64,000 nt of DNA, from contig CAZCYZ010000004.1 of assembly GCA_964503465.1 (NCBI GenBank), forward strand, positions 16,235 to 80,234, read 5' to 3'. The notes beneath the pieces were generated by a model. It saw only the letters and a program-made list of their open reading frames with translations. It did no database searches and was not told where the DNA came from. The stretch comes from an uncultured Gammaproteobacteria bacterium (lineage in GTDB: Bacteria > Patescibacteriota > Microgenomatia > UBA12405). Position 1 is the stretch's first letter; each line of letters starts with the position of its first letter. The position numbers and the translations under genes were made by a program. This document shows, in pieces, positions 31,411-50,585 of the stretch.

Positions 31411-32010
31411 ACGATGGATGGGGCAAGGACCATGGAGTTTTAAGGCAGAAAGGTGTTGTTTGGTGCCATAGCCTTTGTGGTGCTTAAAGCCGTATTGGGG
31501 ATACTGGGAATCAAAACCATCCATAATACAGTCACGAGTAACCTTGGCAACGATGGAAGCGGCGGCGATAGAAAAACATTTTTGATCGCCCTTGACAATG
31601 GACAAACCCCTCCGTCCTACGGACACCTCCCCTTGACAGGGGAGGAATCCGTCCAGAAGATAAAAATCAAACTGGCCTTGGAACGCACGTAATGCTTGAA
31701 TAACGAGTAGATTAATTGTTCGACCTATCCCCTGCTGATCGATATCGACAGAGGCGGCGGAAAATGTTTGGGGACGAAAAGATTGGAGATAGTAAAAAAT
31801 TTTTTGACGTTGACGGGAACTTAGCAATTTGGAATCACGAACAGAGAGATTGATAAACTCTTGGGGATTAAAAGTACCAAGGTCAAGAAGAAAAGCACCG
31901 ATGGTAACCGGACCGGCTAGTGGCCCACGACCAACTTCATCGATACCGAGAAGAAAACGACAACTAGGAGGGAGAAGGGATTTTTCGAAATCAAAATTGG
32001 GACTAATCAT
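31354..32010 (-). CDS. rnhB: ribonuclease HII
   Basis: LGIDEVGRGPLAGPV catalytic motif. The start was trimmed to MISPNF..., and the gene carries an in-frame palindromic element. Confidence 0.85.
   Translation of the reverse strand: MISPNFDFEKSLLPPSCRFLLGIDEVGRGPLAGPVTIGAFLLDLGTFNPQEFINLSVRDSKLLSSRQRQKIFYYLQSFRPQTFSAASVDIDQQGIGRTINLLVIQALRAFQGQFDFYLLDGFLPCQGEVSVGRRGLSIVKGDQKCFSIAAASIVAKVTRDCIMDGFDSQYPQYGFKHHKGYGTKQHLSALKLHGPCPIHRLSFRPLSTDFPHHNSRRY
31603..31653. repeat. palindromic element copy A (double hairpin), in frame within rnhB
   Basis: AAACCCCTCCGTCCTACGGACACCTCCCCTTGACAGGGGAGG; encodes LPCQGEVSVGRRGL in RNase HII. Confidence 0.7.
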
Positions 32011-32025
32011 GTGATAATGAATTAT

Positions 32026-32148
32026 ATGGCAGTAAAAAAAATTGGAGAGAAATACTGTTGCGCGATTTGTGGCAATGAGGTAACGGTAACTAGAGTGGGA
32101 GGGGGAACTTTGATATGTTGCGGACAGGCAATGAAAATTGTAGAGTAG
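32026..32148 (+). CDS. desulforedoxin-like mini-protein (40 aa), not in the ORF track
   Basis: MAVKKIGEKYCCAICGNEVTVTRVGGGTLICCGQAMKIVE versus D. gigas desulforedoxin [37 protein letters not shown]; shared Y.C..CG..V.V...GGGTL.CCG..M. Confidence 0.6.
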   Translation: MAVKKIGEKYCCAICGNEVTVTRVGGGTLICCGQAMKIVE

Positions 32149-32367
32149 ATTGATTGCCAAGAAGCTATTTGGAACGATTGCAGGATGTGTATAAACCTCA
32201 GGAGGGACAACCATTGGTGACTCATAGGCCGTTTGGATTGGGAGCAATATTAAAAGATAGACCATTTGAAAAATTGTCGCCGCGGGAAAAACTAACATTA
32301 GTTAACCATCCGGATCCAGAGATAAGAGAGTGGGCAAGAAATCATAGGTTGGGGTAAAATAAGCGAG

Positions 32368-34134
32368 ATGAAAAAAGATGAACTACGATGGAGACTGGAT
32401 GATTTGTGGCCGATGGACAGTTGGGAGAAGAAGATTGAGAACCTGGAAAATGAATTGAAGGTAATGGAGAAGTGGTTGGGACAACTGGAGCCGGAAATGG
32501 CGGTGGCGGAATTTAAAAAAATAATGCTAGATGATGAGAAGTTGGGGGATATTGTTAGCCGAGTAGGAATGTTGCCAGGGTTGATGGAGGCGGTAAATCA
32601 AAAAGATACCAAGGCCAAACTGTGGCGGCGAAAGATAAGCGATCTGATGCTTAAATTTAATCTGCTGTCGATTCGAATTGGTAGATGGCTGAAGGGTTTG
32701 GAGGTACGGGACAGGAAGCAACTGGATGAGAAAAACGCTAAGAGACTGTTTGCTGGAGTGCCGGAATTGGAAGACAGCTTAAATTTTGGTTGGATGGTGG
32801 GGAAATATAGCTTGGAAGAAAGAGAGGAAGATATTGTGGATAACAAGGATATAAATGGACTGGGAGTGCTGACTGATTTGAGGTCGTTGATGGAGTCGGA
32901 GTATCAATATCAATGGGGTAAAAAAAATATTACCCAATCAGAGTTGATGAAGTTTGTGTATGACAGAAGCGGCGACAAAAGAGAAAGAGCTTATAGACTA
33001 ATGTTAACGAAACACAGAGAGGAAATTGACAAATCGTTTTTGATGTACCAAGCAGTAGTGAAAGACTGGATTTATGAGGCAAAAATTAGGGGCTACAAAT
33101 CGGCAATATCAATGAGGAATATGGGCAACAGAGTAGATGATAAGGTAATTGAGGTATTGCTGGAAGTATGTAAAAGAAAAAGAGGGGTATTTTGGAAGTT
33201 CTTTGACTGGAAGGCAAAATATTTGGGAGTAAAAAAGCTTAATAGGTTTGATTTATATGCATCTTTGGCGGACAAAAAAGGCAGAAGAGTGGTGGATTTT
33301 GAAGAAGCGAAATCGATGGTGTTAGAAACCTTTGATGGTTTTAGTACTGGTTTTGGAATGAGAGCAAGAAAAATATTTGAGGACCAACACATAGATTCCC
33401 ATCCAAGAAGGTTTAAGGAATCGGGAGCGTTTTGTGCGACCGCCAGTCCAGCGGTAACACCTTATATTATGATGAACTACACCGGAACGGTGAGAGATAT
33501 GGCGACGTTGGCCCACGAATTGGGACACGGAATCCACAGTCTGTATGCCAATACAAAATTACCGTCGGTACAACAGGCTGGCTTGCCACTGGCGGAGACT
33601 GCCTCAACACTGGGAGAAATGATAATGTTTGAAAAAATGTTGACGAAAGAAAAGGATGAGAGGCAGAAATCGCTAATGCTGGCGGACAAATTAACTGATG
33701 CTTATGCGACTATTTTGCGTCAAAACTATGTTGTGATGTTTGAGCTGGAAGCATTTAAGAGAATGGAGGGGGCAATAACAGAAAAGGAATTATCTGACTT
33801 GTGGCTTGGACTATTAAAAGAACAGCTTGGGCCAAGAGTAGAAGTTAATCCCCTGTTTCGATATGAATGGGCTTATATATCACATATATTTAACTCACCA
33901 TTCTATTGTTATGCTTATAATTTTGGGGAGCTGTTAAGCTTGGCGCTGTATAAGAGGTACAAGGATGAGGGAAAAAGTTTTGTGGCTAAAATTGAAAAAA
34001 TACTAGCGACGGGGGGATCAAGGGATCCGATGTTGGTGCTGAAAGAAGTGGGAGTGGAAATTGAAAAGGAAAAGTTTTGGGAGGGAGGCTTTGAAATACT
34101 GGAGGAGTGGGTAAGTAGGTTGTGGAAGTTGTAA
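32368..34134 (+). CDS. pepF: oligoendopeptidase F (M3B metallopeptidase)
   Basis: HELGHGIHS HExxH motif plus a downstream Glu, with M3B-typical length (588 aa). Confidence 0.85.
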   Translation: MKKDELRWRLDDLWPMDSWEKKIENLENELKVMEKWLGQLEPEMAVAEFKKIMLDDEKLGDIVSRVGMLPGLMEAVNQKDTKAKLWRRKISDLMLKFNLLSIRIGRWLKGLEVRDRKQLDEKNAKRLFAGVPELEDSLNFGWMVGKYSLEEREEDIVDNKDINGLGVLTDLRSLMESEYQYQWGKKNITQSELMKFVYDRSGDKRERAYRLMLTKHREEIDKSFLMYQAVVKDWIYEAKIRGYKSAISMRNMGNRVDDKVIEVLLEVCKRKRGVFWKFFDWKAKYLGVKKLNRFDLYASLADKKGRRVVDFEEAKSMVLETFDGFSTGFGMRARKIFEDQHIDSHPRRFKESGAFCATASPAVTPYIMMNYTGTVRDMATLAHELGHGIHSLYANTKLPSVQQAGLPLAETASTLGEMIMFEKMLTKEKDERQKSLMLADKLTDAYATILRQNYVVMFELEAFKRMEGAITEKELSDLWLGLLKEQLGPRVEVNPLFRYEWAYISHIFNSPFYCYAYNFGELLSLALYKRYKDEGKSFVAKIEKILATGGSRDPMLVLKEVGVEIEKEKFWEGGFEILEEWVSRLWKL

Positions 34135-34145
34135 AATATGAGACT

Positions 34146-34685
34146 ATGAGAGAGAAACTTTATCGATCAGGAAAAGATAATATAATTACTGGGGTTTGCG
34201 GAGGTTTGGGGGATTATTTTGGAATTGATTCGATATTAATTCGACTAGGATTTGTATTGCTTACCGTGTGGGGTGGAAGCGGGGTAGTGTTGTACATAGT
34301 GATGTCGATACTGATACCCAAGGAAAAAGGTGGATCGGTGACGATGGATAAGGAAAATAAAGTAGAAGAGCTGGTGGAAGACGTAGGAGGCAGGGTAAAA
34401 GATTTGGTGGAAGAAATAAGGGAATCACCAAAAAACACAGGCGGAGGAAAAATAATAATGGGAATTTTGCTGATAATTTGGGGAGGGGTGGAGTTGATTA
34501 AAAAAATGGGATGGCTTGAGGTGGATGTGTGGGAGCTAGTGTGGCGATGGTGGCCAGCAGGAATAATGCTGGCAGGACTGTCGATAATTTTTGGGAAGAG
34601 ATGGTGGGCGGGAGTGATAGGTTTTGTAATAATCGGAGTAGCGGCTTATTTTATTCTCGGCAACAATCTAGGATTTTTCCGATAA
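34146..34685 (+). CDS. PspC-domain membrane protein
   Basis: LYRSGKDNIITGVCGGLGDYFGIDSILIRLGFVL is the PspC domain signature, and a second TM pair is present. Confidence 0.7.
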   Translation: MREKLYRSGKDNIITGVCGGLGDYFGIDSILIRLGFVLLTVWGGSGVVLYIVMSILIPKEKGGSVTMDKENKVEELVEDVGGRVKDLVEEIRESPKNTGGGKIIMGILLIIWGGVELIKKMGWLEVDVWELVWRWWPAGIMLAGLSIIFGKRWWAGVIGFVIIGVAAYFILGNNLGFFR

Positions 34686-35208
34686 CGCCAGACACTTTAC
34701 CCAAGAAATCAGATTTTTTGTAGGGAATAGGGTTTTCTTTGGATTTTGGTTGGGCGTTAAACCCCTCTTGGTCTCCCCTTGACAGGGGAGATTTTTTATC
34801 TGAGTCCATACCGAGATTGATAGCCCAAAAGAGATTATAGAGATCGTAGGATTTTTGAAAAAGATCATAAGCTGTTTTAGTGTCGCCTTTGGTTTGATAT
34901 TTGGTACCAACTTCCATGACCCGCATTGAGGCGGCCAAAAGATGTTTTGAGGTGCACCAAACTTCACCCTCATAATCGGGAATCAACATTTTCATAAGGA
35001 CTTTGCGCATCTCCCGGGCTTCATTTAAAAGTTCGAAATACTTAGTTTTACCAGTTTTGTTGGCATTGAAAAACATATGTTCTTCGATAGCAATCAAGTT
35101 CATAACAGCCATGGAGAGGTCTTCGCCGGAGGCAAGGTCAAACTGATGACCGGACTCGGTTTTTTTAACCTTGTCCATAAATTTCTGGAGGTCAAGAGGA
35201 TTAGTCAT
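34651..35208 (-). CDS. hypothetical protein (C-terminus built partly from a palindromic element)
   Basis: 185-aa ORF; the SPLSRGDQEG segment is encoded by the repeat element at 34759-34790. Confidence 0.35.
   Translation of the reverse strand: MTNPLDLQKFMDKVKKTESGHQFDLASGEDLSMAVMNLIAIEEHMFFNANKTGKTKYFELLNEAREMRKVLMKMLIPDYEGEVWCTSKHLLAASMRVMEVGTKYQTKGDTKTAYDLFQKSYDLYNLFWAINLGMDSDKKSPLSRGDQEGFNAQPKSKENPIPYKKSDFLGKVSGVIGKILDCCRE
34759..34790. repeat. palindromic element copy B
   Basis: AAACCCCTCTTGGTCTCCCCTTGACAGGGGAG; encodes SPLSRGDQEG on the reverse strand. Confidence 0.7.
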
Positions 35209-35246
35209 AGGGTTATTTTATCAATTAAATTTGTTATGCTGGTAAG

Positions 35247-36182
35247 ATGAGCTGGATGTACGTAGTGGGAGTGATTGGAGCGTCAATGATGCTAGCGCTG
35301 GCGACGGAAAAAACTATTAAGTTGTTGGAGCATTTTTGTCAAATAACCGGACTAAAACAGTATGCCGTAACAGCAGTAGTGATTGCTCTGGCGACAAGTT
35401 TGCCGGAACTGGGCGTGTCGGTAATTTCGGCAATGAAGGGTGCTCCGGAAATTGCTTTTGGGAATGGAGTGGGATCTAATATTGTTAACCTAGCTTTGGT
35501 GGCGGGGATGACAGCTGTTTGGAGCCGAGTAATCATGTTTGAACATGATATTGCGGAAAAAAAAATAATTTGGCCAGTTGCCGCGTCGTTTTTGCCTTTT
35601 GTGTTGTTAATAGATGGAAGGATTGGGAGAGGAGATGGAATGTTGCTGCTGTTGACTTACGGAGTTTATGTGTGGAACTTGATAAAGACTAGCAAGACTC
35701 AAAAAACAAATGGAGTGGACTTGAAAAATGGGAAAATGGCAGAGGTACTATTGAGGTTGGGGTGGTGGGTGACGGTGTTATTAATATCGGCTGGTTTGGC
35801 GGTTGATTGGGCAAGGATTTTGGCTGAAGCAGTTAGACTGCCACTGATATTTGTGGGGTTGTTTGTAGTGGCGGTGGGGACCTCCTTGCCAGAGCTGATA
35901 TTTAATCTGGCGGCAGTTAACCACCACCGCAAGAGCCTGGCAATGGGAAATATTATTGGGTCAAACATTACCAATGCCACACTAATAATTGGACTAGCGG
36001 CGATGATGTCACCAATAAATTTGAGCCCAAAGCTGGTGTGGACGACAGGACTGCAGTATCTGTTTGTGGTATTGGCCTTTGTATTGTTCACAATGACAAA
36101 AAAGAAACTGGAAAGATGGGAGGGAGTGGCGTTAATAGGATTGTTTGTCTATTATACGATGGTGGAATTGATTATTAGATAG
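35247..36182 (+). CDS. Ca2+/cation antiporter (CaCA family, YrbG-like)
   Basis: Two alpha-repeats: AVTAVVIALATSLPELGVSV and VGTSLPELIFNLAA (GTSLPE signature). Confidence 0.8.
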   Translation: MSWMYVVGVIGASMMLALATEKTIKLLEHFCQITGLKQYAVTAVVIALATSLPELGVSVISAMKGAPEIAFGNGVGSNIVNLALVAGMTAVWSRVIMFEHDIAEKKIIWPVAASFLPFVLLIDGRIGRGDGMLLLLTYGVYVWNLIKTSKTQKTNGVDLKNGKMAEVLLRLGWWVTVLLISAGLAVDWARILAEAVRLPLIFVGLFVVAVGTSLPELIFNLAAVNHHRKSLAMGNIIGSNITNATLIIGLAAMMSPINLSPKLVWTTGLQYLFVVLAFVLFTMTKKKLERWEGVALIGLFVYYTMVELIIR

Positions 36183-36652
36183 AAGACAAGGGTAATAGTA
36201 AGCACGGAGGTAACTGGAAAAACAACTTTGGCATAGGGAAAGGGGGTGTGACCGAGGCGTTTTTTGATAAACAAATAGAAGTGATTGCCCGTAGCCATGG
36301 CGATGAGACCAAGAATCTGGCCAAGAACTATTTTGTCAACACCAAAAAGAGTGGCGCCGCCAGTTTGATCGGTGAAGTAAAAATAGGCCAAGGTGGTAAC
36401 CAAAAGAATGGCGGCTAAAATATGACCATTGTTAAGAAATTTGGTCTTGAGTTTAGGCGCCAGCCAAAAGGAGATGGCGGTGTTGAGAGCAGAAATCCAG
36501 ATCGAAACCAGTAAATCATCGATGCCAAGCTTTTTGGCAATCAGCATTCCCCCGCCGACAGTAACAATACAGACGGGACACTGGGCAAGTGCAGGACGGG
36601 CAAAAGATAAAAAGTTGAAAGTCAAAAATAAAAAAGAAAATAAAAAAGACAT
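36152..36652 (-). CDS. membrane protein with signal peptide and CPVC motif (possible A24 prepilin-peptidase-like)
   Basis: MSFLFSFLFLTFNFLSFARPALAQCPVC...; G.DD and GVDK segments loosely recall A24 Asp motifs. Weak call. Confidence 0.25.
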   Translation of the reverse strand: MSFLFSFLFLTFNFLSFARPALAQCPVCIVTVGGGMLIAKKLGIDDLLVSIWISALNTAISFWLAPKLKTKFLNNGHILAAILLVTTLAYFYFTDQTGGATLFGVDKIVLGQILGLIAMATGNHFYLFIKKRLGHTPFPYAKVVFPVTSVLTITLVFYLIINSTIV

Positions 36653-36738
36653 AGGATTATGGTAACAGAAAAAAGGTCGGGGCCAAAGTCAAAGTCCCCC
36701 CGCAGTGGCGGGAAGAACCTTGACTTCGAGGAAATAAA

Positions 36739-36828
36739 TTATTTTTTGTGGCAACCGCAAGTACATTCTGGGCCACAATTACATTTGGGACCGCAACCGC
36801 AGGCACAACATTGTTTTTGATTGTCCAT
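36739..36828 (-). CDS. metallothionein-like Cys-rich peptide (29 aa, 9 Cys), not in the ORF track
   Basis: Reverse-strand translation MDNQKQCCACGCGPKCNCGPECTCGCHKK with an ATG start and TAA stop. The listed ORF 36657-36842 is in a different frame. Confidence 0.4.
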   Translation of the reverse strand: MDNQKQCCACGCGPKCNCGPECTCGCHKK

Positions 36829-36928
36829 GTTTGGTTAAACAATAATTACTACAATTGTAGTAGGATGATGGGATGATGTCAAGAGGGTGATTATGAAGAC
36901 TTGATATGTCAAGTGATAGAATACACCG

Positions 36929-38203: not shown

Positions 38204-38217
38204 GGGTGCATTATACC

Positions 38218-40005: not shown

Positions 40006-40006
40006 G

Positions 40007-41671: not shown

Positions 41672-41709
41672 CCACCCCCTACCCCCTCCCTTGAAGAATG
41701 GAGGGGGAG
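41672..41709. repeat. palindromic element copy G (variant), between convergent rbr and the HAD gene
   Basis: CCACCCCCTACCCCCTCCCTTGAAGAATGGAGGGGGAG; supplies the last codons of the HAD ORF and is terminator-like. Confidence 0.55.
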
Positions 41710-42296
41710 ATTGATTCTAGGTCGAGAATTAGCTTGTTGTAATTCTCAAAGATGATGCCGTGAATGCCAAGGGCTTGGGCGCCGTGAATATTGGCAGGTC
41801 TATCGTCAATAAAAATTGTTTCCGAGGCGGCCAGAGAATGGCGAGAAAGTAACTGCTGGTAAATAGCCGGATCGGGCTTACGAAGACCAAGCTGCCAACT
41901 ACAGTAACCAAAACTAAAAATACCGATAATTTTTTGTTGAATATAGGGATAGAGATAGTTTTCGGCATTACTTAAATAAGCGACAGTGAAGTGACGACGA
42001 AGCCGAGCAACAAGGTCGACAACTTCGGGATTGTAGAATGATTCGAATTCGGGAGTGTGATAAACGGAATCAAGAATGCGAAGGTACGGCGCAACATCTT
42101 TGACCGGCAAGAGTTTGACAAACTGCTCCAGGGTAAGGTGGTTGTCTTCGAGAGATTTATAGTGCTGGTCGTAAATAGAACAAAAATGAACGAAGGTGTA
42201 GTGGTTGAGCTGGGCGGCTTGTTGCTTGAAACGATCGAGAAGTAACTGGTAGCGCCAAACGACATTGCCGATGTCGAAAATGAAATTTTTGATCAT
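41679..42296 (-). CDS. HAD-IA hydrolase, YihX-like (DxGNV variant)
   Basis: MIKNFIFDIGNVVW matches the FDLGNV motif I of YihX-type phosphatases. The C-terminal residues are encoded by palindromic element G. Confidence 0.65.
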   Translation of the reverse strand: MIKNFIFDIGNVVWRYQLLLDRFKQQAAQLNHYTFVHFCSIYDQHYKSLEDNHLTLEQFVKLLPVKDVAPYLRILDSVYHTPEFESFYNPEVVDLVARLRRHFTVAYLSNAENYLYPYIQQKIIGIFSFGYCSWQLGLRKPDPAIYQQLLSRHSLAASETIFIDDRPANIHGAQALGIHGIIFENYNKLILDLESISPSILQGRG

Positions 42297-42841: not shown

Positions 42842-42851
42842 ATCATGAAAT

Positions 42852-43554: not shown

Positions 43555-43567
43555 GGAATAAGGGTAC

Positions 43568-43601
43568 CAAAAACCCGTCCCGATGCCAAGACCGGGACGG
43601 G
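43568..43601 (-). terminator. rho-independent terminator hairpin for gene 43623-44162
   Basis: 9-bp GC stem CCCGTCCCG/CGGGACGGG with a 10-nt loop. The minus-strand RNA then runs into a U-tract (+ strand aaaaa at 43569-43573). Confidence 0.5.
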
Positions 43602-43622
43602 AGGGATTAGTGTCTACCTAAA

Positions 43623-44162: not shown

Positions 44163-44213
44163 GGATTTAATAATTAGTAATTCACTTAGTAATACGAAGA
44201 AGGGAGGAGAATA

Positions 44214-45062
44214 TTACAGTTTTTGACACTGGGGGCAGAAAAAGGTACCGCGACCGCCGATAACGATGCGTTTAATGGGGATGTGGCAGATGGGGCAGGG
44301 CTCCCCCATTCGCTGGTAGACCTTAAAAAAATACTGATGGGAACCTTTGGTGCCGTCGGGAAGGATGTATTGGTCGTCGGCAGCGGTGGAACCTTGGTGG
44401 AAGATAGCCTCGGAAATAACGCTGATAACAGCTTGATGAAGTGTTTTGATTTGAGACGGTTGAAGTTGGTTGGCTTTGGAGGAAGGATGAATGCCGGCCA
44501 GAAAAAGGGAATCGTTGGCATAGATATTGCCAATACCGGCAAAACGGTTTTGATCAAGAAGGACGAATTTGATGGGGCGGGAGGAGTGGAGCTGGGAGGA
44601 AAAGTAGTCAATAGAAAAGGATGGATCGAGAATGTCGCGGCCAAGATGTAGTTGGAATTGATGAAGTTCGTCGGGAGAAAAAAGTTTAATCCAACCAAAC
44701 TTACGTTGGTCGTTGAAGTATAAAATCTCCCCCCGATCCCCTCTTTGACAAGAGGGGGAGAGATAAAAAATTACTCTAGTTGATTTGGAGTTAATGGTTG
44801 AGGTTGGATGACCCAGCTGCTGACCTTGGTAAACGATTTGACCGGTCATTTTGAGGTGGAAATGAAGGATTAAATCGTTTTGAAGATGAAGGGAAAGCTG
44901 TTTACCAAGACGGGTCAATTTGACAATTTTTTGCCCCTCGACGAGCTTGGGATCACCAACGAAAGATTTGGGGGTGAGAATGTCAACTTTTTGAATAGTT
45001 AGACCAACGAGACAAGGTTCAAGAAAGCGTCGGATAGTTTCGACTTCAGGAAGTTCGGGCAC
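44214..45062 (-). CDS. mutM: formamidopyrimidine-DNA glycosylase (Fpg/MutM; Nei not excluded)
   Basis: MPELPEVETIRR N-terminus (catalytic Pro2, Glu3) and a C-terminal zinc finger CPICHIPIKRIVIGGRGTFFCPQCQ. It contains a palindromic-element insertion. Confidence 0.85.
   Translation of the reverse strand: MPELPEVETIRRFLEPCLVGLTIQKVDILTPKSFVGDPKLVEGQKIVKLTRLGKQLSLHLQNDLILHFHLKMTGQIVYQGQQLGHPTSTINSKSTRVIFYLSPSCQRGDRGEILYFNDQRKFGWIKLFSPDELHQFQLHLGRDILDPSFSIDYFSSQLHSSRPIKFVLLDQNRFAGIGNIYANDSLFLAGIHPSSKANQLQPSQIKTLHQAVISVISEAIFHQGSTAADDQYILPDGTKGSHQYFFKVYQRMGEPCPICHIPIKRIVIGGRGTFFCPQCQKL
44726..44763. repeat. palindromic element copy C (variant), in frame within mutM
   Basis: ATCTCCCCCCGATCCCCTCTTTGACAAGAGGGGGAGAG; encodes SPSCQRGDRGE. 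Confidence 0.6.
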
Positions 45063-45076
45063 GATAGTATTTTAGC

Positions 45077-46012
45077 TCAAATCAAATCATCAAGATCTAG
45101 GACAGAGACTGAATTATTGGCGGCAAGACGACGAAGACCGATCATCATGTCGGTAAGACTGTCCTTGATTTGGGAAAAGGAATTTAGATGGGTTTGAACT
45201 TGAGAAACGTAGCCAGTGATGAGAACTAGTTCGGAGATATCCATTCGACCAGCGGTGACCCGGTAGCCAAGATAAAGAAGAATAATGGAGTAAAAGAAAA
45301 CAGCACTGTTTTGAAGATAGGCCCACTCGGTATAACCCCAATGACAAAGACGGTTGTAGTGACGGCTCCAAGAATGCTGTTCTAAATCGAAATCATTACT
45401 GTCTTGAAGTTTGCCATAATAACGTTCGGTTTTGGTATAGAGATGATCCTTGAGAAGAGCATAACGCTGGGTGGTGTAGATATCGATGAAATAATAAATA
45501 AGAATATAAGCAGTGGTGAGAATAAAAGCACTCCAATCACGAGTGAGAAGGATAACCGGGATAGTAATGAGAGAAACGAGACTGTCGATACCAGGCTGCT
45601 TAAAAAGGGATAGGGTAAGAACAGAGGCATCGGAAAAATTTCGAACCGCCTGGACGGTAGCATGGCGCTCTTCTTTGGAATCAGTTTTCAAGTCAGAGAG
45701 AAAATAGTTTTGGATATCAAAACCGATATTACTAATGGCATTGTCGAGCCGAGTGGTGGACTTGAGGCGAAGATAATTGTCAAGTAGACGGATAACAAAG
45801 AGAGCGACAATGGTGGTAAGTAGAGTGGGTAGGGATGATTGAAGTTCCAGATGGCGAATAACCAGCGAAAACTGATAAACGGTAATCAGGGGGAGAATGG
45901 CTGAGATAAACCTGATTAAGAGCCAAAAAAAGAAGGCGGATTTGTCGGTTATGATTTTGAGAATAAAAAAAAGAACTCGATGAGCTTCGGTGGTCACAGG
46001 ATTAATTATCAA
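45077..46012 (-). CDS. ABC-exporter-type transmembrane domain protein with no NBD (possibly degenerate)
   Basis: 6-TM protein of 311 aa resembling an ABC_membrane domain. It has no Walker motifs. Confidence 0.35.
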   Translation of the reverse strand: MIINPVTTEAHRVLFFILKIITDKSAFFFWLLIRFISAILPLITVYQFSLVIRHLELQSSLPTLLTTIVALFVIRLLDNYLRLKSTTRLDNAISNIGFDIQNYFLSDLKTDSKEERHATVQAVRNFSDASVLTLSLFKQPGIDSLVSLITIPVILLTRDWSAFILTTAYILIYYFIDIYTTQRYALLKDHLYTKTERYYGKLQDSNDFDLEQHSWSRHYNRLCHWGYTEWAYLQNSAVFFYSIILLYLGYRVTAGRMDISELVLITGYVSQVQTHLNSFSQIKDSLTDMMIGLRRLAANNSVSVLDLDDLI

Positions 46013-46055
46013 TTATCAATTACGAATTAGCAATTGGATTGAGGTAAAATTGGCT

Positions 46056-47051
46056 ATGAATAATGAGATATATGACACGGTAATTATCGGTTCGGGGCCG
46101 GCAGGGTTGACGGCAGCGATTTACAACATTAGGGCAAACCTAAAAACAGTGGTGGTGGCTGGGAATCAACCGGGAGGGCAACTAACGATTACAACCTTGG
46201 TGGATAACTATCCTGGATTTCCAAACGGAATTGGAGGAGTGAAGTTGATGATGGACATGATGGAACAGGTGAAGAATTTAGGAGGAGAGATAAAAAATGG
46301 AGTTGTTTTGAAAATAAACCCCTCTAAATCTCCCCTTGACAGAGGAGACTTTGAAATTACGCTGGAAAATGACGAGATAATAAAAACTAAGGCAGTAATA
46401 ATAGCGACGGGGGCAAAACACAGATGGTTGGGGCTACCAAAGGAACAGGATTTAATTGGCAAAGGGGTGTCGGGGTGTGCAACTTGTGATGGAATGTTTT
46501 TTAGGGACAAAGTGGTGGCAATTGTGGGTGGAGGTGATTCGGCTTGTACCGAGGCAGATTTTTTGACCAGGTTTGCATCGAAAGTGTATATGATTCACAG
46601 GAGGGATAGTTTGAGGGCAACAGTAGCGGAACAAAGACCAGTGTTGGAGAATCCCAAAATTGAAATGGTGTGGAACACGGAAGTGATTGAATTAAACCCC
46701 TTAAACCCCTCTCCCGCGGTAGCGGGATCTCCCCTTGATGAAGGGGAGACTTTAAAACAGATTAAAATAAGAAACAATAAAACTGGGGAGGAGAAAATAT
46801 CAGAAGTAGAAGGATTGTTTGTGGCAATAGGAGGAGATCCGGTGACTGAATTTGTAACAGACCTAGTAGAAAGGAAAGAAGGAGGACAAATTGTGGTGGG
46901 GAAGAATACAGAATATTTGACTATGAGTTCGATGCCGGGAATTTTTGCGGCGGGAGATTGCGTCAACGATAAATACATGCAGGCGATAATAGCGGCCGGT
47001 GACGGAGCTAGAGCGGCGTTGGACGCAGAGAAATGGCTAAAACAAAGATAA
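46056..47051 (+). CDS. trxB: thioredoxin-disulfide reductase
   Basis: IIGSGPAGLTAAIY (FAD), GCATCDGMFF (redox CxxC) and GGGDSA (NADPH). The start was trimmed to MNNEIYD. The gene carries two in-frame palindromic elements. Confidence 0.9.
   Translation: MNNEIYDTVIIGSGPAGLTAAIYNIRANLKTVVVAGNQPGGQLTITTLVDNYPGFPNGIGGVKLMMDMMEQVKNLGGEIKNGVVLKINPSKSPLDRGDFEITLENDEIIKTKAVIIATGAKHRWLGLPKEQDLIGKGVSGCATCDGMFFRDKVVAIVGGGDSACTEADFLTRFASKVYMIHRRDSLRATVAEQRPVLENPKIEMVWNTEVIELNPLNPSPAVAGSPLDEGETLKQIKIRNNKTGEEKISEVEGLFVAIGGDPVTEFVTDLVERKEGGQIVVGKNTEYLTMSSMPGIFAAGDCVNDKYMQAIIAAGDGARAALDAEKWLKQR
46316..46349. repeat. palindromic element copy D, in frame within trxB
   Basis: AAACCCCTCTAAATCTCCCCTTGACAGAGGAGAC; encodes NPSKSPLDRGD. 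Confidence 0.7.
46693..46750. repeat. palindromic element copy E (double hairpin), in frame within trxB
   Basis: AAACCCCTTAAACCCCTCTCCCGCGGTAGCGGGATCTCCCCTTGATGAAGGGGAGAC; encodes NPLNPSPAVAGSPLDEGE. Confidence 0.7.
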
Positions 47052-47350
47052 GTTACTTTCCTTGCGACCAACGTCGGTGACGAGAATTTTTGGGTATTTC
47101 CGAACTACGGCCATCAAAGGCCTGAGCAGGAACCAAAAAGGGACAATGTTGCCTGTCACGACAATAACAACCAGCCTTGGTGGGGGTAAAGTGTTTTTGA
47201 TCTCTTTTTCCGTGAGTACAAATAAGTTCTTCAGGAGGAATTTCATTCAAATATTTTTCTAACATTTCTGGGAACACGAACGGATGATACCAGAAAGGAA
47301 AGAAATATATTGTAGCAAGATGATGATGGATTTATAATTTCCCATACTTT

Positions 47351-49159
47351 ATGAAGAAAAAATTAGCGGTGATGCAAAATTTGGCGGTCAACCTGGGACG
47401 GATGTTAAAACTGGCCTGGGAGACTGACAGGTGGTTGACAGTTGGCTATTATTTGGCGGCAATTATTGGATCATTGATGCCAATAGGAGCAGGAATAGCT
47501 TCAAAATTTTTGATTGATTATTTAATTAAAAACCAGGGACGGATTGGGGAGATATTTGGATTAGCAATGGCGTTGGTAGTAATGCGGCTGTTGTTGCCAT
47601 TGGGAGAAACTTTAAGTTATTGGGTACTTAATGTGTCGTATTTGGACTATCTGTTTAGGTCGAAGTTGCAGAATGAAATTAACTATCGTTTTTATGCCAA
47701 AATGGCCAGTTTAGATGCGGCCTATTTTGAGGATCCAAAAACGCAGAACTTAATCACCAAGACTAAAGACACCAAAACCTGGAGGCTTCCGGATGTAATT
47801 AGAGGCCTATCATATACCACTCGATCAGTGACAATAGCAATTGGAGCAACGGGGGTGTTGATGGGATACGGCTGGTGGGTGCCGGTGGTGGTAATAGCGG
47901 CCTGTATACCAAGATTAATTAGTCAAGCAAAACAGGGTGATGTGCAGTGGTCGATATATGGATCGGGAGCACCGAAGGCGAGAAGGCTGTGGTATTTTGA
48001 GTGGTTGTTGTCGGAACCAGTAGTGCTGAAGGAAGTCAAAATATTTCAGTCGGGGGGATATTTACTTGGAAAGTTGAAACAGACCCAAAGCGACTTATTT
48101 AAAATCTATCGTAAGTCGCTTGATGATTTTGTGGGATTGTGGTTGGTACTACCGTTTATTGAGACAGCGGTGTTGATAATAGTGGCTTATTTAAAGATGG
48201 GCGAGGTGGTGACAGGGGCAATGACGGTGGGCGGATTGGCATTGTTTTTGGAAATGCTATTGTACCTTAAGGGTAATATTGTCGAAATGGCGGCCAACTT
48301 GGGATGGTTGTATGGTAACAACTTGTATGTCAATGATTTTTACAAGGTGATGAAGTTGCCGGATTTAATTAAAGAAAGAGCAAAACCAAAAAAAATCGAA
48401 ACTGACAAACCGCCAAAGATTGAATTCAAAAATGTGGGATTTGGATATCCAGGAAGCAAAAGAAGAGTGCTGGAAAAAATTAACATGGTGATTGAGCCGG
48501 GAAAAAATGTAGCAATGGTGGGAATAAATGGAGCAGGGAAAACAACAATCATTAAACTAATGTGTAGATTTTATGATGTAACCGAGGGGGAAATTTTGAT
48601 TAACGGGATAAATATAAAAGAAATTCGAAAAAGTGATTTGTATAGACTAATGGGAACCCTGTTTCAGGAATTTGCCCATTACCACTTCACAGTAGAAGAG
48701 AATATTGCCATGGGGAATCCAGGAAAGAAAAATAGTCAGAAGATGATAGTGGCGGCGAAACAAGCCGGAGCGGATAAGTTTATTGAGGGCTTGCCAAACA
48801 AATACAAGCAATTGCTGGGGCGAGAATTTGATGACGGTGAGGACATTTCGGGGGGACAGTGGCAAAAACTGGCAATTGCCAGGGCGTTTTATGAGCAGGC
48901 GCCACTGTTGATACTGGACGAGCCAACAAGTGCAATTGACGCTGAAGCAGAATTTGAAATATTTACTAACTTACAGAAGGTGTACAGGGATAAAACATTA
49001 ATACTGGTATCACATCGATTCTCGACGGTAAGGAATGCGGATATGATTTATGTGATTGAAGAAGGAAAGGTTAGCGAGGAAGGAAGTCATTGGGAACTAC
49101 TGGAGAAAAATGGTAAATATGCGTCGATGTTTAAAGCCCAAGCGAAGGGATATGAGTAA
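47351..49159 (+). CDS. ABC transporter, fused permease/ATP-binding protein (exporter type)
   Basis: 6-TM N-domain; Walker A GINGAGKTT; signature ISGGQWQKLAIARA; Walker B LILDEPTSAID. Confidence 0.85.
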   Translation: MKKKLAVMQNLAVNLGRMLKLAWETDRWLTVGYYLAAIIGSLMPIGAGIASKFLIDYLIKNQGRIGEIFGLAMALVVMRLLLPLGETLSYWVLNVSYLDYLFRSKLQNEINYRFYAKMASLDAAYFEDPKTQNLITKTKDTKTWRLPDVIRGLSYTTRSVTIAIGATGVLMGYGWWVPVVVIAACIPRLISQAKQGDVQWSIYGSGAPKARRLWYFEWLLSEPVVLKEVKIFQSGGYLLGKLKQTQSDLFKIYRKSLDDFVGLWLVLPFIETAVLIIVAYLKMGEVVTGAMTVGGLALFLEMLLYLKGNIVEMAANLGWLYGNNLYVNDFYKVMKLPDLIKERAKPKKIETDKPPKIEFKNVGFGYPGSKRRVLEKINMVIEPGKNVAMVGINGAGKTTIIKLMCRFYDVTEGEILINGINIKEIRKSDLYRLMGTLFQEFAHYHFTVEENIAMGNPGKKNSQKMIVAAKQAGADKFIEGLPNKYKQLLGREFDDGEDISGGQWQKLAIARAFYEQAPLLILDEPTSAIDAEAEFEIFTNLQKVYRDKTLILVSHRFSTVRNADMIYVIEEGKVSEEGSHWELLEKNGKYASMFKAQAKGYE

Positions 49160-49445
49160 TCAGTAAGTAACAGTATGCTATACTACAAGATAATATGACC
49201 GAAGCAAAAGTAACCGTAATTATGCCCGGTGGAAACGAGCGGGCGGTGGTGGTGAGTGGAGTATATGGGCTAAAATTAGTTCCGGGAGTCAAAGGTTTTG
49301 GGGTCGTGGGCGTAACCCATGTTCAAGACGGGGATGGATTAGATGAAGTAATAGTGACAGCAGGGATAGGGGCAAGACACGAAGTAAGACGGAGATTTGG
49401 ATGTCCTACAAAGGAAATGGTTGACATTGGGAAAGGAGTTGCGGT

Positions 49446-50585
49446 TCAAGTAGAACACTTAAAATAGGTTCTTACCTTTTTGATGAAATTTTTGGTGGAG
49501 AATTGTTGGGCGTGTTGGATGCAGACAGCGGGATTGATTTTAAGTTTTTGAAGTTTTTGGATAGCAGCGGCACAGGACTCGGGAGTAAGCTCGTTAAATA
49601 GAATTCCGGTTTGACCATCAATAACAGTTTCAGCAATGCCACCGGAGTTGTAACCAACCACCGGACAACCGTAACTTTGGGCTTCGACAGAAACAATACC
49701 AAAATCTTCTTGATCAGAACAAAAGATGTAACTTCTGGCCTGGGAAAAAAGTTGGGTTTTTTGTTCTTGGGTGACTTCACCAACAAATTCAATGGTGGGA
49801 CCGGCGATAGATTTGAGATAAGCAAGAGTACCGGCAAAATCGCGACCAAAAACCTTAAGAGGGAGTTTGAGTTGGTTGCAGGCTTCAATGGCGATATCGT
49901 AGCGTTTGGCGGCAGCAAGACGACCACCGGTGAGGAAAAACCCCTCCGTCCTACGGACAACTCCCCTTGACAGGGAAGGAGTTAATTTAGGAATATCGAC
50001 TGGGGGGTTAATGACAATTGAATCACGATCGTAGAATTTTTTGACACGGGAGGCAGTAGTAGAGGAATTGGCAAGGTATTGATCGACGTTTTGGGAAAAC
50101 TTTTTATCAAGAGGACGGAAGGTGTGATTGAGGATCCAGGAAACAAGAGAAATGACGGGGAAGCGTGATAGGTCACGAGCAGTGGGAAGTCCATAAAGAT
50201 AACGAGGTGGAGTGTGACAGTAACAGATTAGTTTGGCGGTTTGTTTGTTGAGAGCGTTGGGGAAATAGGCACCGGTGGCACTGGAAATTAAAAGATCAAA
50301 ATTGGAAAAATCAAAAAGTTGAAAGGCTAAGGGCGACAGAAGACGAAGAGGAGAAATTAGTTTGTGGGCATAAGGAATAAATCGGAAAAAACTTTGATGA
50401 ACGCGATGGGACCATTTTTTTTCAAGACGTTGTCGATGGGGACCAAAAAACTCTGGGGTATAAAGAGTAGTGTAGATAGGGGCATTGGGAAAAATGTCGG
50501 ACAGAACTTCGAGAACCGATTCGGCGCCACCATATTCTTTGAGATAGTCGTGGATGAGGGCTACTTTGGGTGAATTTGTAGTCAA
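49446..50585 (-). CDS. glycosyltransferase family 4
   Basis: EDFGIVSVEAQSYGCPVVG (EX7E). It contains palindromic element F in frame. Confidence 0.75.
   Translation of the reverse strand: MTTNSPKVALIHDYLKEYGGAESVLEVLSDIFPNAPIYTTLYTPEFFGPHRQRLEKKWSHRVHQSFFRFIPYAHKLISPLRLLSPLAFQLFDFSNFDLLISSATGAYFPNALNKQTAKLICYCHTPPRYLYGLPTARDLSRFPVISLVSWILNHTFRPLDKKFSQNVDQYLANSSTTASRVKKFYDRDSIVINPPVDIPKLTPSLSRGVVRRTEGFFLTGGRLAAAKRYDIAIEACNQLKLPLKVFGRDFAGTLAYLKSIAGPTIEFVGEVTQEQKTQLFSQARSYIFCSDQEDFGIVSVEAQSYGCPVVGYNSGGIAETVIDGQTGILFNELTPESCAAAIQKLQKLKINPAVCIQHAQQFSTKNFIKKVRTYFKCST
49938..49981. repeat. palindromic element copy F (double hairpin, near-identical to A), in frame within the GT4 gene
   Basis: AAACCCCTCCGTCCTACGGACAACTCCCCTTGACAGGGAAGGAG; encodes SLSRGVVRRTEGF on the reverse strand. 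Confidence 0.7.

What the first reader, a model, noticed from the sequence alone, without database searches (positions are those of the whole stretch)
31603..49981. Family of palindromic elements inserted IN FRAME inside essential genes (RPE-like), encoding SPL(D/S)RGD-type peptides
At least seven copies of a 35-55 bp element have the consensus AAACCCCTC-(optional second hairpin TCCGTCCTACGGA or TCCCGCGGTAGCGGGA)-CTCCCCTTGACAGGGGAG. Five sit inside ORFs without breaking the frame: rnhB (31603), the hypothetical 34651-35208, mutM (44726), trxB twice (46316 and 46693) and a GT4 gene (49938). One more forms the 3' end of the HAD gene next to rbr (41672). Because the core is palindromic, both orientations translate to S-P-L-(D/S)-R-G-D/E (KSPLDRGD, SPLSRGDQEG, SPSCQRGDRGE, SPLDEGE). 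A different frame is used in rnhB and the GT4 gene (LPCQGEV, SLSRGVVRRTEGF). This mirrors Rickettsia palindromic elements, a rare case of selfish or structural DNA colonising protein-coding sequence as surface loops. A related solitary hairpin (CCCCGCAGTGGCGGG) occurs at 36706-36720.
Basis: seen in the sequence. Interest (0 to 1): 0.8.

Follow-up and report, generated by a model that had tools for sequence, protein, structure and literature searches.

The report
Triplex-forming DNA repeats inside genes
Seven copies of a 30-55 bp repeat (a short C-rich box, an optional mini-hairpin and a conserved hairpin) sit in this Shapirobacteria-like genome, six of them translated in frame as extra loops of ordinary enzymes. 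The repeat has the architecture of the known "potential intrastrand triplex" (BoxC/PIT) DNA motifs, occurs in many bacterial phyla, and here always points the same way relative to the G-rich DNA strand.

Summary
Five canonical copies and two divergent ones lie at 31.6-50 kb. The core 18-mer matches 4 times against 0.02 expected. Six copies lie in frame inside rnhB, a hypothetical gene, mutM, trxB (two) and a GT4 gene; one forms the 3' end of a HAD gene. Syntenic relatives and 120 TrxB orthologues show empty and filled sites, so these are lineage-specific insertions, placed in beta-hairpin loops or a domain linker.

- The box CCCCTC is the mirror image of the hairpin arm CTCCCC. When the arm varies, the box varies with it. 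This is the architecture of potential intrastrand triplex motifs (BoxC/PIT/TMECO; Holder 2015).
- The same element, often base for base, occurs in Bacillota, Desulfobacterota, Betaproteobacteria, Bifidobacterium and several CPR lineages. There it is mostly a singlet or an inverted dimer.
- In the low-GC, mostly CPR loci, the C-box strand lies on the G-rich strand (38 to 4; 3 of the 4 are spurious). It is sense or antisense to host genes equally often (16 to 17).

This points to a DNA-level, replication-linked repeat, not a peptide or an RNA signal. The comparison with Rickettsia palindromic elements holds as an analogy, not as membership. How the repeat spreads is unknown.

The parts
31604..31644 (+). 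Canonical copy with a mini-hairpin: AAACCCCTC / CGTCCTACGGACAC / CTCCCC-TTGACA-GGGGAG. It lies inside rnhB (31354-32010, - strand), antisense to the gene, and is read as LPCQGEVSVGRRG between the catalytic DG and the KGD motif.
   Evidence: two-hairpin DNA fold, z = -4.5; 5 residues more than T. maritima RNase HII
34759..34790 (+). Minimal copy without a mini-hairpin: AAACCCCTC / TTGGT / CTCCCC-TTGACA-GGGGAG. It lies inside the hypothetical gene 34651-35208 (- strand) and is read as KSPLSRGDQEGF.
   Evidence: (absent in L123; present and 100% identical in L122)
41672..41709 (+). Divergent copy that keeps the mirror: box CCACCCCC / TA / arm CCCCCTCC - loop - GGAGGGGG. It forms the last codons of the HAD hydrolase gene (41679-42296, - strand), in the 10-bp gap to the convergent rubrerythrin gene.
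   Evidence: (C-terminal extension absent in L123)
44726..44762 (+). Divergent copy that keeps the mirror: box TCTCCCC / CCGAT / arm CCCCTCT(T) - TGAC - (A)AGAGGGG. It lies inside mutM (44214-45062, - strand) and is read as SPSCQRGDRGE.
   Evidence: 8-9 extra residues in a beta-turn relative to solved MutM; 7 residues absent in L123
46316..46347 (+). Minimal copy: AAACCCCTC / TAAAT / CTCCCC-TTGACA-GAGGAG. This is trxB site 1 (trxB 46056-47051, + strand, sense), read as NPSKSPLDRGDF.
   Evidence: between strands 84-89 and 99-103 of the model
46694..46748 (+). Copy with a duplicated box and a mini-hairpin: AAACCCCTT AAACCCCTC / TCCCGCGGTAGCGGGAT / CTCCCC-TTGATGAA-GGGGAG. This is trxB site 2 (sense), read as NPLNPSPAVAGSPLDEGE.
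   Evidence: 39-nt gap in L122 and a slightly longer gap in L123; coil 214-234, pLDDT about 53
49938..49978 (+). Canonical copy with the same mini-hairpin as the rnhB copy: AAACCCCTC / CGTCCTACGGACAA / CTCCCC-TTGACA-GGGAAG. It lies inside the GT4 glycosyltransferase (49446-50585, - strand), in the linker between the two Rossmann-like domains, and is read as TPSLSRGVVRRTEGFF.

Best explanation
**What it is.** The elements are short, non-coding, DNA-level repeats of the 'potential intrastrand triplex' kind. This kind has been described in E. coli as BoxC, PIT elements or TMECO.

**Parts of one unit:**
- a pyrimidine box (CCCCTC);
- a linker, which is either 5-7 nt or a covarying mini-hairpin;
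- a hairpin whose 5' arm (CTCCCC) is the mirror image of the box and whose 3' arm is GGGGAG, closed by a TTGACA-type loop.

**Predicted fold.** On the strand as written, the box can lie in the major groove of the hairpin, parallel to GGGGAG (C+.G-C and T.A-T triads; class IV). On the complementary strand, 5'-CTCCCC-TGTCAA-GGGGAG-linker-GAGGGG-3' is a perfect class II purine-motif triplex, the type shown to fold in vitro for TMECO.

**Shown here:**
- the architecture;
- mirror covariation of box and arm;
- covariation in the mini-hairpin and in the seventh stem pair;
- presence in many phyla;
- lineage-specific presence or absence in orthologous genes;
- loop placement in the host proteins;
- orientation tied to the G-rich strand and not to transcription.

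**Inferred:**
- The repeats spread as selfish or neutral DNA by an unknown route that probably involves single-stranded DNA or replication.
- In gene-dense CPR genomes many copies land in ORFs. Only copies that keep the frame, carry no stop and fall in tolerant surface loops or linkers survive. Five of the six frames of the core are open. The survivors are translated as 10-18-residue loops that have no function of their own.
- The uniform orientation keeps the strand that folds most stably off the lagging-strand template. That strand carries the purine-motif triplex and the GNA-type mini-hairpin loops. The bias could arise from strand-specific insertion or from loss of copies in the replication-blocking orientation.
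For: **Significance and positions:**

**Mirror box and arm**
- Of 142 exact-core matches in 120 genome loci, 101 carry an exact CCCCTC within 48 nt upstream and only 2 downstream.
- Variant arms carry the matching mirrored box: TCCCTCT/TCTCCCT, CCCTCTC/CTCTCCC, TCTCCCC/CCCCTCT, TCCTCC/CCTCCT, CCCCCCT/TCCCCCC. The two divergent window copies do the same.
- For arms other than CTCCCC, the mirror lies upstream in 185 of 480 cases. A direct repeat lies upstream in 80 and the mirror lies downstream in 27.

**Hairpin structure**
- 46 of 56 distinct linkers of 11 nt or more form a perfect hairpin of at least 4 bp, against 18% of shuffled linkers.
- 31 of 46 loops are C-TNC-G, which is C-GNA-G on the other strand.
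- The pair flanking the core covaries: C-G 36, G-C 27, T-A 8.
- DNA folds give the two-hairpin structure with z-scores down to -5.2.

**Lineage-specific insertion in loops:**

**Orientation**
- All 7 window copies face the same way, although 5 are antisense and 2 sense to their host genes.
- GC skew of the + strand is positive in every gene, whichever strand codes.
- The + strand carries 41 of 60 ORFs from 7.3 kb onward.
- In low-GC loci, 38 elements lie on the G-rich strand against 4. Of the 4, 3 are spurious reverse readings and 1 is a dimer partner. 16 in-ORF elements are sense and 17 antisense.

**Known class:** PMC4666352 describes BoxC/PIT/TMECO as pyrimidine stem - loop - purine stem - loop - purine stem. 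It reports class II triplex formation in vitro and also 'palindromic' inverted pairs. I saw similar inverted dimers in Geobacter, Gallionella and Nitrosomonadales.
Against: - Triplex formation is inferred from sequence only. The stems have just 6-8 triads, the shortest that the ITxF criteria accept.
- For TMECO, no triplex was detected in double-stranded DNA or by in vivo footprinting (PMC4666352).
- The TTGACA loop and the exact box sequence are conserved across phyla. Triplex geometry alone does not require this, so a sequence-specific partner (protein or enzyme) may exist that I did not find.
- No transposase or other mobilising gene was found, so mobility is inferred from distribution only.
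- Net insert lengths (9-39 nt) are shorter than the elements. Divergence prevented exact boundaries or target duplications from being defined.
- That the G-rich strand is the leading strand is a standard assumption. Gene-strand bias supports it, but no mapped origin proves it.
- Copy conservation is uneven. The copy in the hypothetical gene is 100% identical to its L122 orthologue, while trxB site 1 has decayed.
Confidence: 0.68

Rival explanations
1. An RPE- or MITE-like selfish palindromic transposon. A transposase supplied in trans moves it; for example a REP-associated tyrosine transposase (RAYT) or an IS200/IS605 Y1 enzyme acting on single-stranded hairpins at the replication fork. The triplex-like mirror would then be incidental or a recognition feature.
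For: - The repeat is multi-copy and polymorphic among orthologues.
- Two window copies in different genes share the same mini-hairpin.
- It has a conserved 5' tag plus hairpin, like GTAG+REP, and occurs as singlets and inverted doublets like REP and REPIN.
- Orientation is tied to the replication strand, as I recall being reported for IS200/IS605 elements.
- It is in frame in ORFs, like RPEs.
Against:
- The gene between two inverted copies in L072 carries a plasma-membrane-unrelated regulator sequence that I read as a Crp/Fnr-type regulator from its translation, not a RAYT.
- No target duplication is visible.
- For BoxC/TMECO, no link to transposons, phages or plasmids was found (PMC4666352).
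- Mirror covariation of box and arm is not a feature of REP or IS200 ends.
Confidence: 0.2
2. An RNA-level element whose structure works in the transcript: an intrinsic terminator, an mRNA-stabilising 3' hairpin, a pyrimidine-motif RNA triplex or a regulatory motif.
For: - In Oscillospiraceae and in phage contigs the core hairpin is often followed by a T run, like a terminator.
- One window copy scores as terminator-like.
- Copies at the HAD 3' end (window) and at the 3' end of a NUDIX-like ORF in L063 sit where terminators sit.
- Pyrimidine-motif triplexes can form in RNA (PMC4666352).
Against: - Orientation is independent of transcription: 5 antisense and 2 sense in the window, 17 and 16 in the low-GC loci. 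It is nearly invariant relative to GC skew.
- Copies sit in the middle of ORFs, including sense copies in trxB, where a terminator would be harmful.
- Mini-hairpin loops are C-TNC-G/C-GNA-G triloops. They are not the C-UUCG-G or GNRA tetraloops typical of stable RNA hairpins.
- No Rfam family matches.
- PIT elements showed no promoter or terminator activity (PMC4666352).
Confidence: 0.07
3. The peptide is the selected product. An SPL(D/S)RGD-type surface loop, for example an RGD adhesion-like motif, has been recruited repeatedly into proteins.
For: The peptides SPLDRGD, SPLSRGD and CQRGDRGE recur. Many TrxB orthologues carry SPLDKGD at the same loops.
Against: - Three different reading frames and both orientations are used. 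rnhB reads LPCQGEV and GT4 reads SLSRGVVRRTEGF.
- About half of the elements in the low-GC loci (28 of 61) lie outside any ORF of 90 residues or more.
- The same DNA is widespread in other phyla, many copies lying outside long ORFs.
- The host proteins are cytoplasmic enzymes.
- The inserted loops have low model confidence.
Confidence: 0.02
4. A replication-related functional signal, such as a fork-pausing, priming or chromosome-organisation site. Function, not tolerance, would maintain its fixed polarity.
For: The polarity relative to GC skew is extreme. The loop sequence TTGACA and the box are conserved across phyla beyond what structure needs. The copy in the hypothetical gene is 100% conserved in a gene that is 85% identical.
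Against: - Presence is patchy among close relatives, and copies decay.
- Copies are clustered and irregularly spaced: seven within 18.4 kb and none in the other 45 kb of the window.
- E. coli TMECO shows no strand bias (PMC4666352).
- No sigma-70-type promoter is predicted at any copy.
Confidence: 0.08

Closest known systems
BoxC / PIT (potential intrastrand triplex) elements / TMECO of E. coli and other Proteobacteria (Hoyne & Maher 2000 as cited in, and Holder et al. 2015 = PMC4666352)
   Same: - Same three-block architecture on one strand: pyrimidine stem - loop - purine stem - loop - mirrored purine stem. This is class II, with the complementary class IV on the other strand.
- G/C-rich stems.
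- Many nearly identical copies per genome.
- Single units and 'palindromic' inverted pairs.
- Variable presence among relatives.
- No associated transposase.
   Different: - Stems are 6-8 nt (CTCCCC/GGGGAG/GAGGGG) against 9 nt (CCCTCNCCC).
- The first loop is a conserved TTGACA.
- The second loop often holds a covarying mini-hairpin of 12-28 nt, which the published search (loops of 1-6 nt) would miss.
- The element is found in Patescibacteria, Bacillota, Desulfobacterota and Actinomycetota, not only in Proteobacteria and Cyanobacteria.
- TMECO is 'always intergenic with no strand bias'. Here about half of the copies in the low-GC loci are inside ORFs, and orientation follows GC skew almost without exception.
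Rickettsia palindromic elements (RPE); from my own knowledge (Ogata et al. 2000)
   Same: A repeated, structure-forming DNA element inserted in frame in housekeeping genes. It is translated as extra peptide segments that sit on protein surfaces or loops without destroying function.
   Different: - RPEs are about 100-150 bp and restricted to Rickettsia and relatives.
- They are simple palindromes without a mirrored third block.
- Here the elements are 30-55 bp, span phyla, form potential triplexes and are polarised relative to the replication strand.
- No sequence similarity was tested or is expected.
REP/BIME and REPIN elements with RAYT transposases (PMC3333891 and PMC3479197 listed; details from my own knowledge)
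   Same: Imperfect palindromes of 20-40 nt with a conserved 5' tag. They occur as singlets and inverted doublets in high copy number and are thought to act as single-stranded DNA hairpins.
   Different: - REPs are extragenic and carry GTAG, not a mirrored box.
- REPs flank a RAYT gene. No Y1 transposase was found next to these elements.
d(GCGAAGC)-type GNA-triloop DNA mini-hairpins (from my own knowledge: Hirao and co-workers, 1990s)
   Same: On the purine-motif strand, most mini-hairpin loops are C-GNA-G (GAA, GCA, GTA, GGA). This is the loop type known for unusually stable DNA hairpins.
   Different: That is a structural motif, not a genomic element family. Stability was not measured here, and nearest-neighbour folding gave similar energies for both strands.

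Membership tests
Potential intrastrand triplex motif (PIT / ITxF class II, with class IV on the opposite strand) | Three consecutive blocks on one strand with compatible triads: a pyrimidine stem, its Watson-Crick purine stem, and a third stem that mirrors the purine stem (G.G-C, A.A-T) or the pyrimidine stem (C+.G-C, T.A-T) | tested here: met
   CCCCTC / CTCCCC / GGGGAG gives 6 of 6 triads in three canonical copies; copies 46316 and 49938 each carry one mismatch in the purine arm. The divergent copies keep the mirror with changed sequence. Box and arm covary across variants.
Potential intrastrand triplex motif (PIT / ITxF class II, with class IV on the opposite strand) | Operational ITxF limits: stems of 6-15 nt and both loops of 1-6 nt (PMC4666352) | tested here: inconclusive
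   One minimal copy (34759) meets them exactly: loops of 6 and 5 nt, 6-nt stems with no mismatch. The other minimal copy (46316) has the same loops but one mismatch in a 6-nt stem. Copies with a 14-17-nt mini-hairpin in the second loop do not meet them. The architecture is the same.
Potential intrastrand triplex motif (PIT / ITxF class II, with class IV on the opposite strand) | Actual triplex formation by the single strand (CD, NMR, melting) | not testable with these tools
   The folding tools model Watson-Crick pairs only.
TMECO / BoxC sequence family of Enterobacteria | Consensus CCCTCNCCC-N3-6-GGGNGAGGG-N3-GGGNGAGGG | tested here: not met
   The window copies have 6-nt CTCCCC-type stems. 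blastn of a betaproteobacterial dimer (from L080) found nothing in 5,426 E. coli genomes. An Aeromonas relative shows an intermediate form.
TMECO / BoxC sequence family of Enterobacteria | Intergenic location without strand bias (a described property) | tested here: not met
   Six of seven window copies are in ORFs. 38 of 42 clearly skewed low-GC-locus copies lie on the G-rich strand.
Rickettsia palindromic elements (RPE) | Palindromic repeat of about 100-150 bp belonging to the RPE sequence families of Rickettsia | tested here: not met
   Size is 32-55 bp. The element is present in at least eight phyla. Sequence similarity to RPE consensus sequences was not tested.
Rickettsia palindromic elements (RPE) | In-frame insertion in protein-coding genes, translated as surface segments | tested here: met
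REP / REPIN with RAYT | A RAYT (Y1 transposase) gene flanked by the repeats, and a GTAG-type 5' tag | tested here: not met
   tblastn with an IS200 TnpA found one unlinked IS200 copy in about 1 Mb of element-centred DNA and none in CPR loci. L072 carries an ordinary regulator gene between inverted copies.
Curated structured RNA families (Rfam 15) | A match to a covariance model | tested here: not met
   No relevant hit in window 30-52 kb at E up to 10, nor in 14 element-rich loci at gathering thresholds.

The most novel reading that the evidence does not exclude
A single, sequence-conserved triplex-forming DNA element is shared by distant bacterial phyla (box CCCCTC, TTGACA loop, optional GNA mini-hairpin). 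It propagates by a strand-specific process coupled to replication that needs no element-encoded transposase. In CPR bacteria it routinely rewrites protein loops. That would make it a new type of mobile or self-propagating non-B DNA, and a general source of protein insertions in reduced genomes.
Probability: 0.25. Interest if true: 0.8.

Novelty: new variant of a known kind. Interest (0 to 1): 0.62.

Why it matters
- **Two phenomena joined.** Triplex-forming BoxC/PIT repeats have no known function. In-frame colonisation of genes by repeats was known mainly from Rickettsia. This finding links the two.
- **A natural test of in vivo folding.** The near-absolute polarity relative to GC skew in the low-GC, mostly CPR loci bears on whether such motifs fold during replication. 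Holder et al. (PMC4666352) could not detect folding in vivo in E. coli.
- **Practical consequences.**
  - The repeats explain part of the length variation and low-confidence loops in CPR proteins.
  - They can mislead gene callers and homology-based alignments.
  - They offer markers of recent insertion for strain-level population genetics.
- **An open question.** Cross-phylum identity of 30-36 nt raises the question of what recognises or copies the element.

Tried and rejected
- **Rfam.** Scans of the window and of 14 element-rich loci matched no family.
- **Literature search for the core sequence.** No paper holds it. Searches for palindromic or REP elements in Patescibacteria/CPR found nothing relevant. 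The Geobacter genome paper mentions multicopy sequences but not this one in its main text.
- **Transposase search.** tblastn with an IS200 TnpA found only one unlinked IS200. A weak hit next to an element in L063 falls in ordinary coding sequence that I read as tRNA-synthetase-like, not a Y1 transposase. The gene between inverted copies in L072 reads as a Crp-type regulator.
- **Promoter idea.** The TTGACA loop is not used as a -35 box: no predicted promoter uses it.
- **Terminator idea.** Only one copy qualifies.
- **Phage vector idea.** 12 viral contigs carry the core, but 10 are bare hairpin-plus-T-run terminators without the box.
- **Plasmids and E. coli.** One match, in an Aeromonas replicon of chromosome size, and none in E. 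coli.
- **RNA tetraloop reading of the mini-hairpin.** Rejected, because the loops are C-TNC-G triloops.
- **Exact insertion boundaries or target duplications.** Not resolvable at 77-85% DNA identity to the closest relative.
- **First mirror test.** Allowing one mismatch confounded it. I replaced it with an exact-match test.

Full report
**1. The observation**

- The core CTCCCCTTGACAGGGGAG with up to 3 mismatches occurs 4 times in the window, against 0.02 expected.
- A relaxed pattern of box plus hairpin gives 7 matches against 0.12 in Markov controls; 5 of the 7 are the canonical copies.
- The five canonical copies are 31604-31644, 34759-34790, 46316-46347, 46694-46748 and 49938-49978.
- The two divergent copies are 41672-41709 and 44726-44762.
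- All seven are written in the same direction on the + strand.
- Pfam confirms the host genes: RNase HII, HAD hydrolase (next to rubrerythrin), Fpg/MutM, thioredoxin reductase and a GT4/GT1 glycosyltransferase. The sixth host has no family.
- The hairpin at 36695-36716 has no mirrored box and looks like an ordinary terminator on the - strand. I do not count it as a member.

**2. The segments are insertions in protein loops**

The window's TrxB is identical to a protein from a 107-kb NCBI contig. Its nearest relatives are labelled Candidatus Shapirobacteria.

TrxB orthologues:
- Among 120 TrxB orthologues of 61-78% identity (plus the window's own protein), length runs from 310 to 374 residues.
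- Most of the internal length variation falls at the two element sites.
- Empty sites read as canonical turns (KKINKTEN-LEI and VEIKGEEKLEAI). Filled sites read NPS...SPLDKGDF, with or without a segment encoded by the mini-hairpin.

Two syntenic contigs were recovered:
- L123, the more distant, is empty at the hypothetical gene, GT4, mutM and both trxB sites.
- L122, the closest, shares the copies in the hypothetical gene and GT4. It has a decayed trxB site 1 and lacks trxB site 2 (a 39-nt gap).

Placement in the proteins:
- Against solved structures, the segments fall in alignment gaps between beta-strands in TrxB and MutM. In RNase HII they fall between the catalytic DG and KGD motifs.
- In an AlphaFold model of the window TrxB (mean pLDDT 83.7), insert 1 lies between strands 84-89 and 99-103. 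Insert 2 is a coil at 214-234 with pLDDT near 53.
- The GT4 copy lies in the linker between the two domains.

Three reading frames and both orientations are used. The recurring peptides are therefore consequences of the DNA sequence.

**3. The element is not lineage-specific**

The loci come from:
- Oscillospiraceae, Ruminococcus and Selenomonadales;
- Geobacter and Desulfuromonadales;
- Gallionella, Nitrosomonadales, Zoogloeaceae, Uliginosibacterium and Propionivibrio;
- Bifidobacterium;
- Cloacimonadota, Spirochaetes, Phycisphaerae, Ignavibacteriales and Nitrospirae;
- several CPR lineages: Shapirobacteria, Collierbacteria, Peribacteria and UBA1372.

The box was not part of the search pattern, yet 101 of 142 matches have an exact CCCCTC within 48 nt upstream and only 2 downstream. 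Some variants are identical over 30 nt or more between Shapirobacteria and Geobacteraceae, for example CCCCTCTAAATCTCCCCTTGACAGGGGAGACT.

In Geobacter and the Betaproteobacteria the unit occurs as an inverted dimer of box-hairpin ... hairpin-box'. In Oscillospiraceae it occurs as singlets or convergent pairs.

**4. Anatomy**

The unit is modular: an (A)ACCCCTC box, then a linker, then the core hairpin.
- The linker is 5-7 nt (CCAAC, CAAAC, TAAAT, TTGGT) or contains a hairpin.
- 46 of 56 distinct linkers of 11 nt or more form a perfect stem of at least 4 bp, against 18% of shuffled linkers. Stem sequences differ freely between copies.
- 31 of 46 loops are C-TNC-G, that is C-GNA-G on the other strand.
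- The base pair flanking the core covaries (C-G 36, G-C 27, T-A 8), so the core stem is at least 7 bp.
- DNA folding gives the two-hairpin structure.

The key point is that the box is the mirror image of the 5' arm: CCCCTC | CTCCCC. When the arm differs, the box differs in the same mirrored way:
- TCCCTCT/TCTCCCT
- CCCTCTC/CTCTCCC
- TCTCCCC/CCCCTCT
- TCCTCC/CCTCCT
- CCCCCCT/TCCCCCC

The two divergent window copies follow the same rule: CCACCCCC|TA|CCCCCTCC and TCTCCCC|CCGAT|CCCCTCT. For arms other than CTCCCC, an exact mirror lies upstream in 185 of 480 hairpins. A direct repeat lies upstream in 80, and the mirror lies downstream in 27.

**5. What this architecture is**

A pyrimidine block that mirrors the pyrimidine arm of a pyrimidine/purine hairpin is the definition of a potential intrastrand triplex.
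- On the written strand, 5'-CCCCTC runs parallel to 5'-GGGGAG (C+.G-C and T.A-T triads; class IV).
- On the complement, 5'-CTCCCC-loop-GGGGAG-linker-GAGGGG-3' is a perfect class II purine-motif triplex.

This class is known. BoxC repeats of E. coli were re-described as PIT elements and then as TMECO. Holder et al. 2015 (PMC4666352) report that:
- the motif is CCCTCNCCC-N3-6-GGGNGAGGG-N3-GGGNGAGGG;
- it occurs 3610 times in 262 proteobacterial genomes;
- the single strand folds as a class II triplex in vitro;
- no triplex was detected in duplex DNA or in vivo;
- PIT elements showed no promoter or terminator activity in an earlier study they cite;
- the motif is not associated with transposons, phages or plasmids;
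- it is linked to local genomic variability;
- 'palindromic' inverted pairs also occur.

An Aeromonas element found by blastn is intermediate in form between TMECO and the present family.

**6. What differs here**

(a) Location. In the low-GC, mostly CPR loci, 33 of 61 elements found with the generalised definition lie inside ORFs of 90 residues or more.

(b) Orientation.
- The + strand of the window has positive GC skew in every gene of the 30-52 kb region, whichever strand codes (0.05-0.56).
- The + strand carries 41 of 60 ORFs from 7.3 kb onward.
- Skew changes sign near 7-7.7 kb. So the + strand is most likely the leading strand, which means it serves as the lagging-strand template.
- All seven window copies have the C-box strand on it.
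- Across the low-GC loci from both replichores, 38 elements lie on the locally G-rich strand against 4. Of the 4, three are spurious reverse readings of a genuine copy and one is the partner in a dimer.
- Relative to the host ORF, the split is 16 sense to 17 antisense.
- The box is C-rich on the G-rich strand, so composition does not explain the bias.

(c) Conserved detail. The first loop is a conserved TTGACA-type sequence even when the arms change. The second loop often holds a mini-hairpin, which the published search (loops of 1-6 nt) would not detect.

**7. How it most likely works**

Shown: the architecture, the covariation, insertion into loops, the phylum-spanning distribution and the polarity.

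Inferred:
- The repeats are DNA-level passengers.
- In compact CPR genomes they often land in genes.
- Only frame-preserving copies without stops, in tolerant loops, linkers or gene ends, persist. Five of the six frames of the core are open; only TCC CCT TGA has a stop.
- The fixed orientation fits a single-strand or replication-linked process.
  - One option is strand-specific insertion, as I recall for IS200/IS605 elements.
  - The other is loss of copies whose more stably folding strand lies on the lagging-strand template. That strand carries the purine-motif triplex, GNA triloops and a GTCA loop. R-type triplexes are reported to arrest polymerases (cited in PMC4666352).
  - I cannot separate these two options.
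- Copies decay at uneven rates. The copy in the hypothetical gene is 100% identical to L122 in a gene of 85% identity. The GT4 copy has 5 differences. trxB site 1 has decayed.

**8. Rivals**

- *A transposase-driven REP/RPE-like element* remains possible, but no enzyme was found.
- *An RNA-level role* is contradicted by orientation, by mid-ORF sense copies, by loop types and by the lack of any Rfam match.
- *A peptide-level role* is contradicted by frame usage.
- *A replication signal* is not excluded, but patchy presence and clustering argue against it.

**9. Verdict**

The element is best filed as a new variant of the BoxC/PIT intrastrand-triplex repeats that behaves like Rickettsia palindromic elements in CPR genomes. 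It is not an RPE relative.

The new points are the coding-sequence colonisation, the near-absolute strand polarity, the nested mini-hairpin and the cross-phylum sequence identity. The mechanism of spread and the reason for the conserved TTGACA loop remain unexplained.

Noticed in passing
window 6904-7713 (skew switch at about 7000-7700): GC skew of the + strand changes from about -0.25 to +0.4, and cumulative skew has its minimum here. The switch falls in an 800-bp stretch without an ORF of 150 residues or more. This is a candidate replication origin (or terminus). No dnaA was seen among the translated ORFs nearby.
   Followed up: partly
window 30000-52000: Strand composition bias is strong enough to shape proteins. 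The + strand is G-rich in every gene whichever strand codes. By eye, genes coded on the - strand look rich in S, P, L, F, Q and H, and + strand genes rich in G, E, K and V; I did not count residues.
   Followed up: partly
window 55-2236: An SRAP (SOS-response-associated peptidase) gene is followed by a Y-family polymerase (IMS/IMS_C) gene. Both are on the + strand, but in a stretch with negative skew and slightly higher GC than the neighbouring stretch at 2.0-4.0 kb.
   Followed up: no
window 2580-3904: Two + strand genes have positive skew (+0.19 to +0.27) and low GC (0.35-0.38). They lie inside the otherwise negatively skewed left part of the window. This may be an inversion or acquired DNA.
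   Followed up: no
window 36695-36716 (- strand): A hairpin TCTTCCCGCCACTGCGGGGGGA is followed by CTTTGACTTT. It is terminator-like and has no mirrored box.
   Followed up: yes
window 46694-46711: The pyrimidine box is tandemly duplicated (AAACCCCTT AAACCCCTC) at trxB site 2. This adds NPL to the inserted peptide and suggests slippage at the box.
   Followed up: no
window 31613-31626 and 49947-49960: The rnhB and GT4 copies share the same mini-hairpin (CGTCCTACGGACA). The orthologous GT4 copy in L122 differs (TGTCCGACGGACA). This hints at recent copying or gene conversion between copies within one genome.
   Followed up: partly
L078 3020-3048; L018, L035, L056; window 46316-46347: The variant with the TAAAT linker is identical over about 32 nt between Shapirobacteria and Geobacteraceae/Desulfuromonadaceae MAGs. 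Structure alone does not explain this.
   Followed up: partly
L123 14010-17188 and L122 19211-19903: The syntenic relatives carry TraC-like and TraG/VirB4-like P-loop genes just beyond the GT4 and 5'-3' exonuclease genes. One element (L123 17081-17121) sits in frame near the end of the TraG-like gene.
   Followed up: no
L124, L126, L127, L132, L134 (viral contigs): A group of related phage contigs uses the bare core hairpin CTCCCCTTGACAGGGGAG followed by TTTTTTT, without the box. It looks like an ordinary intrinsic terminator, so the 18-mer alone is not diagnostic of the element.
   Followed up: yes
L021 (7.3 kb) and L084 (5.3 kb): Some CPR contigs carry four to six elements in 5-7 kb, all in the same orientation. 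That is roughly one per 1-2 kb and much denser than in the window.
   Followed up: partly
L122 7455-9945: The closest relative has only short called genes where the window and L123 have mutM and the neighbouring 311-residue gene. This may be gene loss or decay in that lineage.
   Followed up: no
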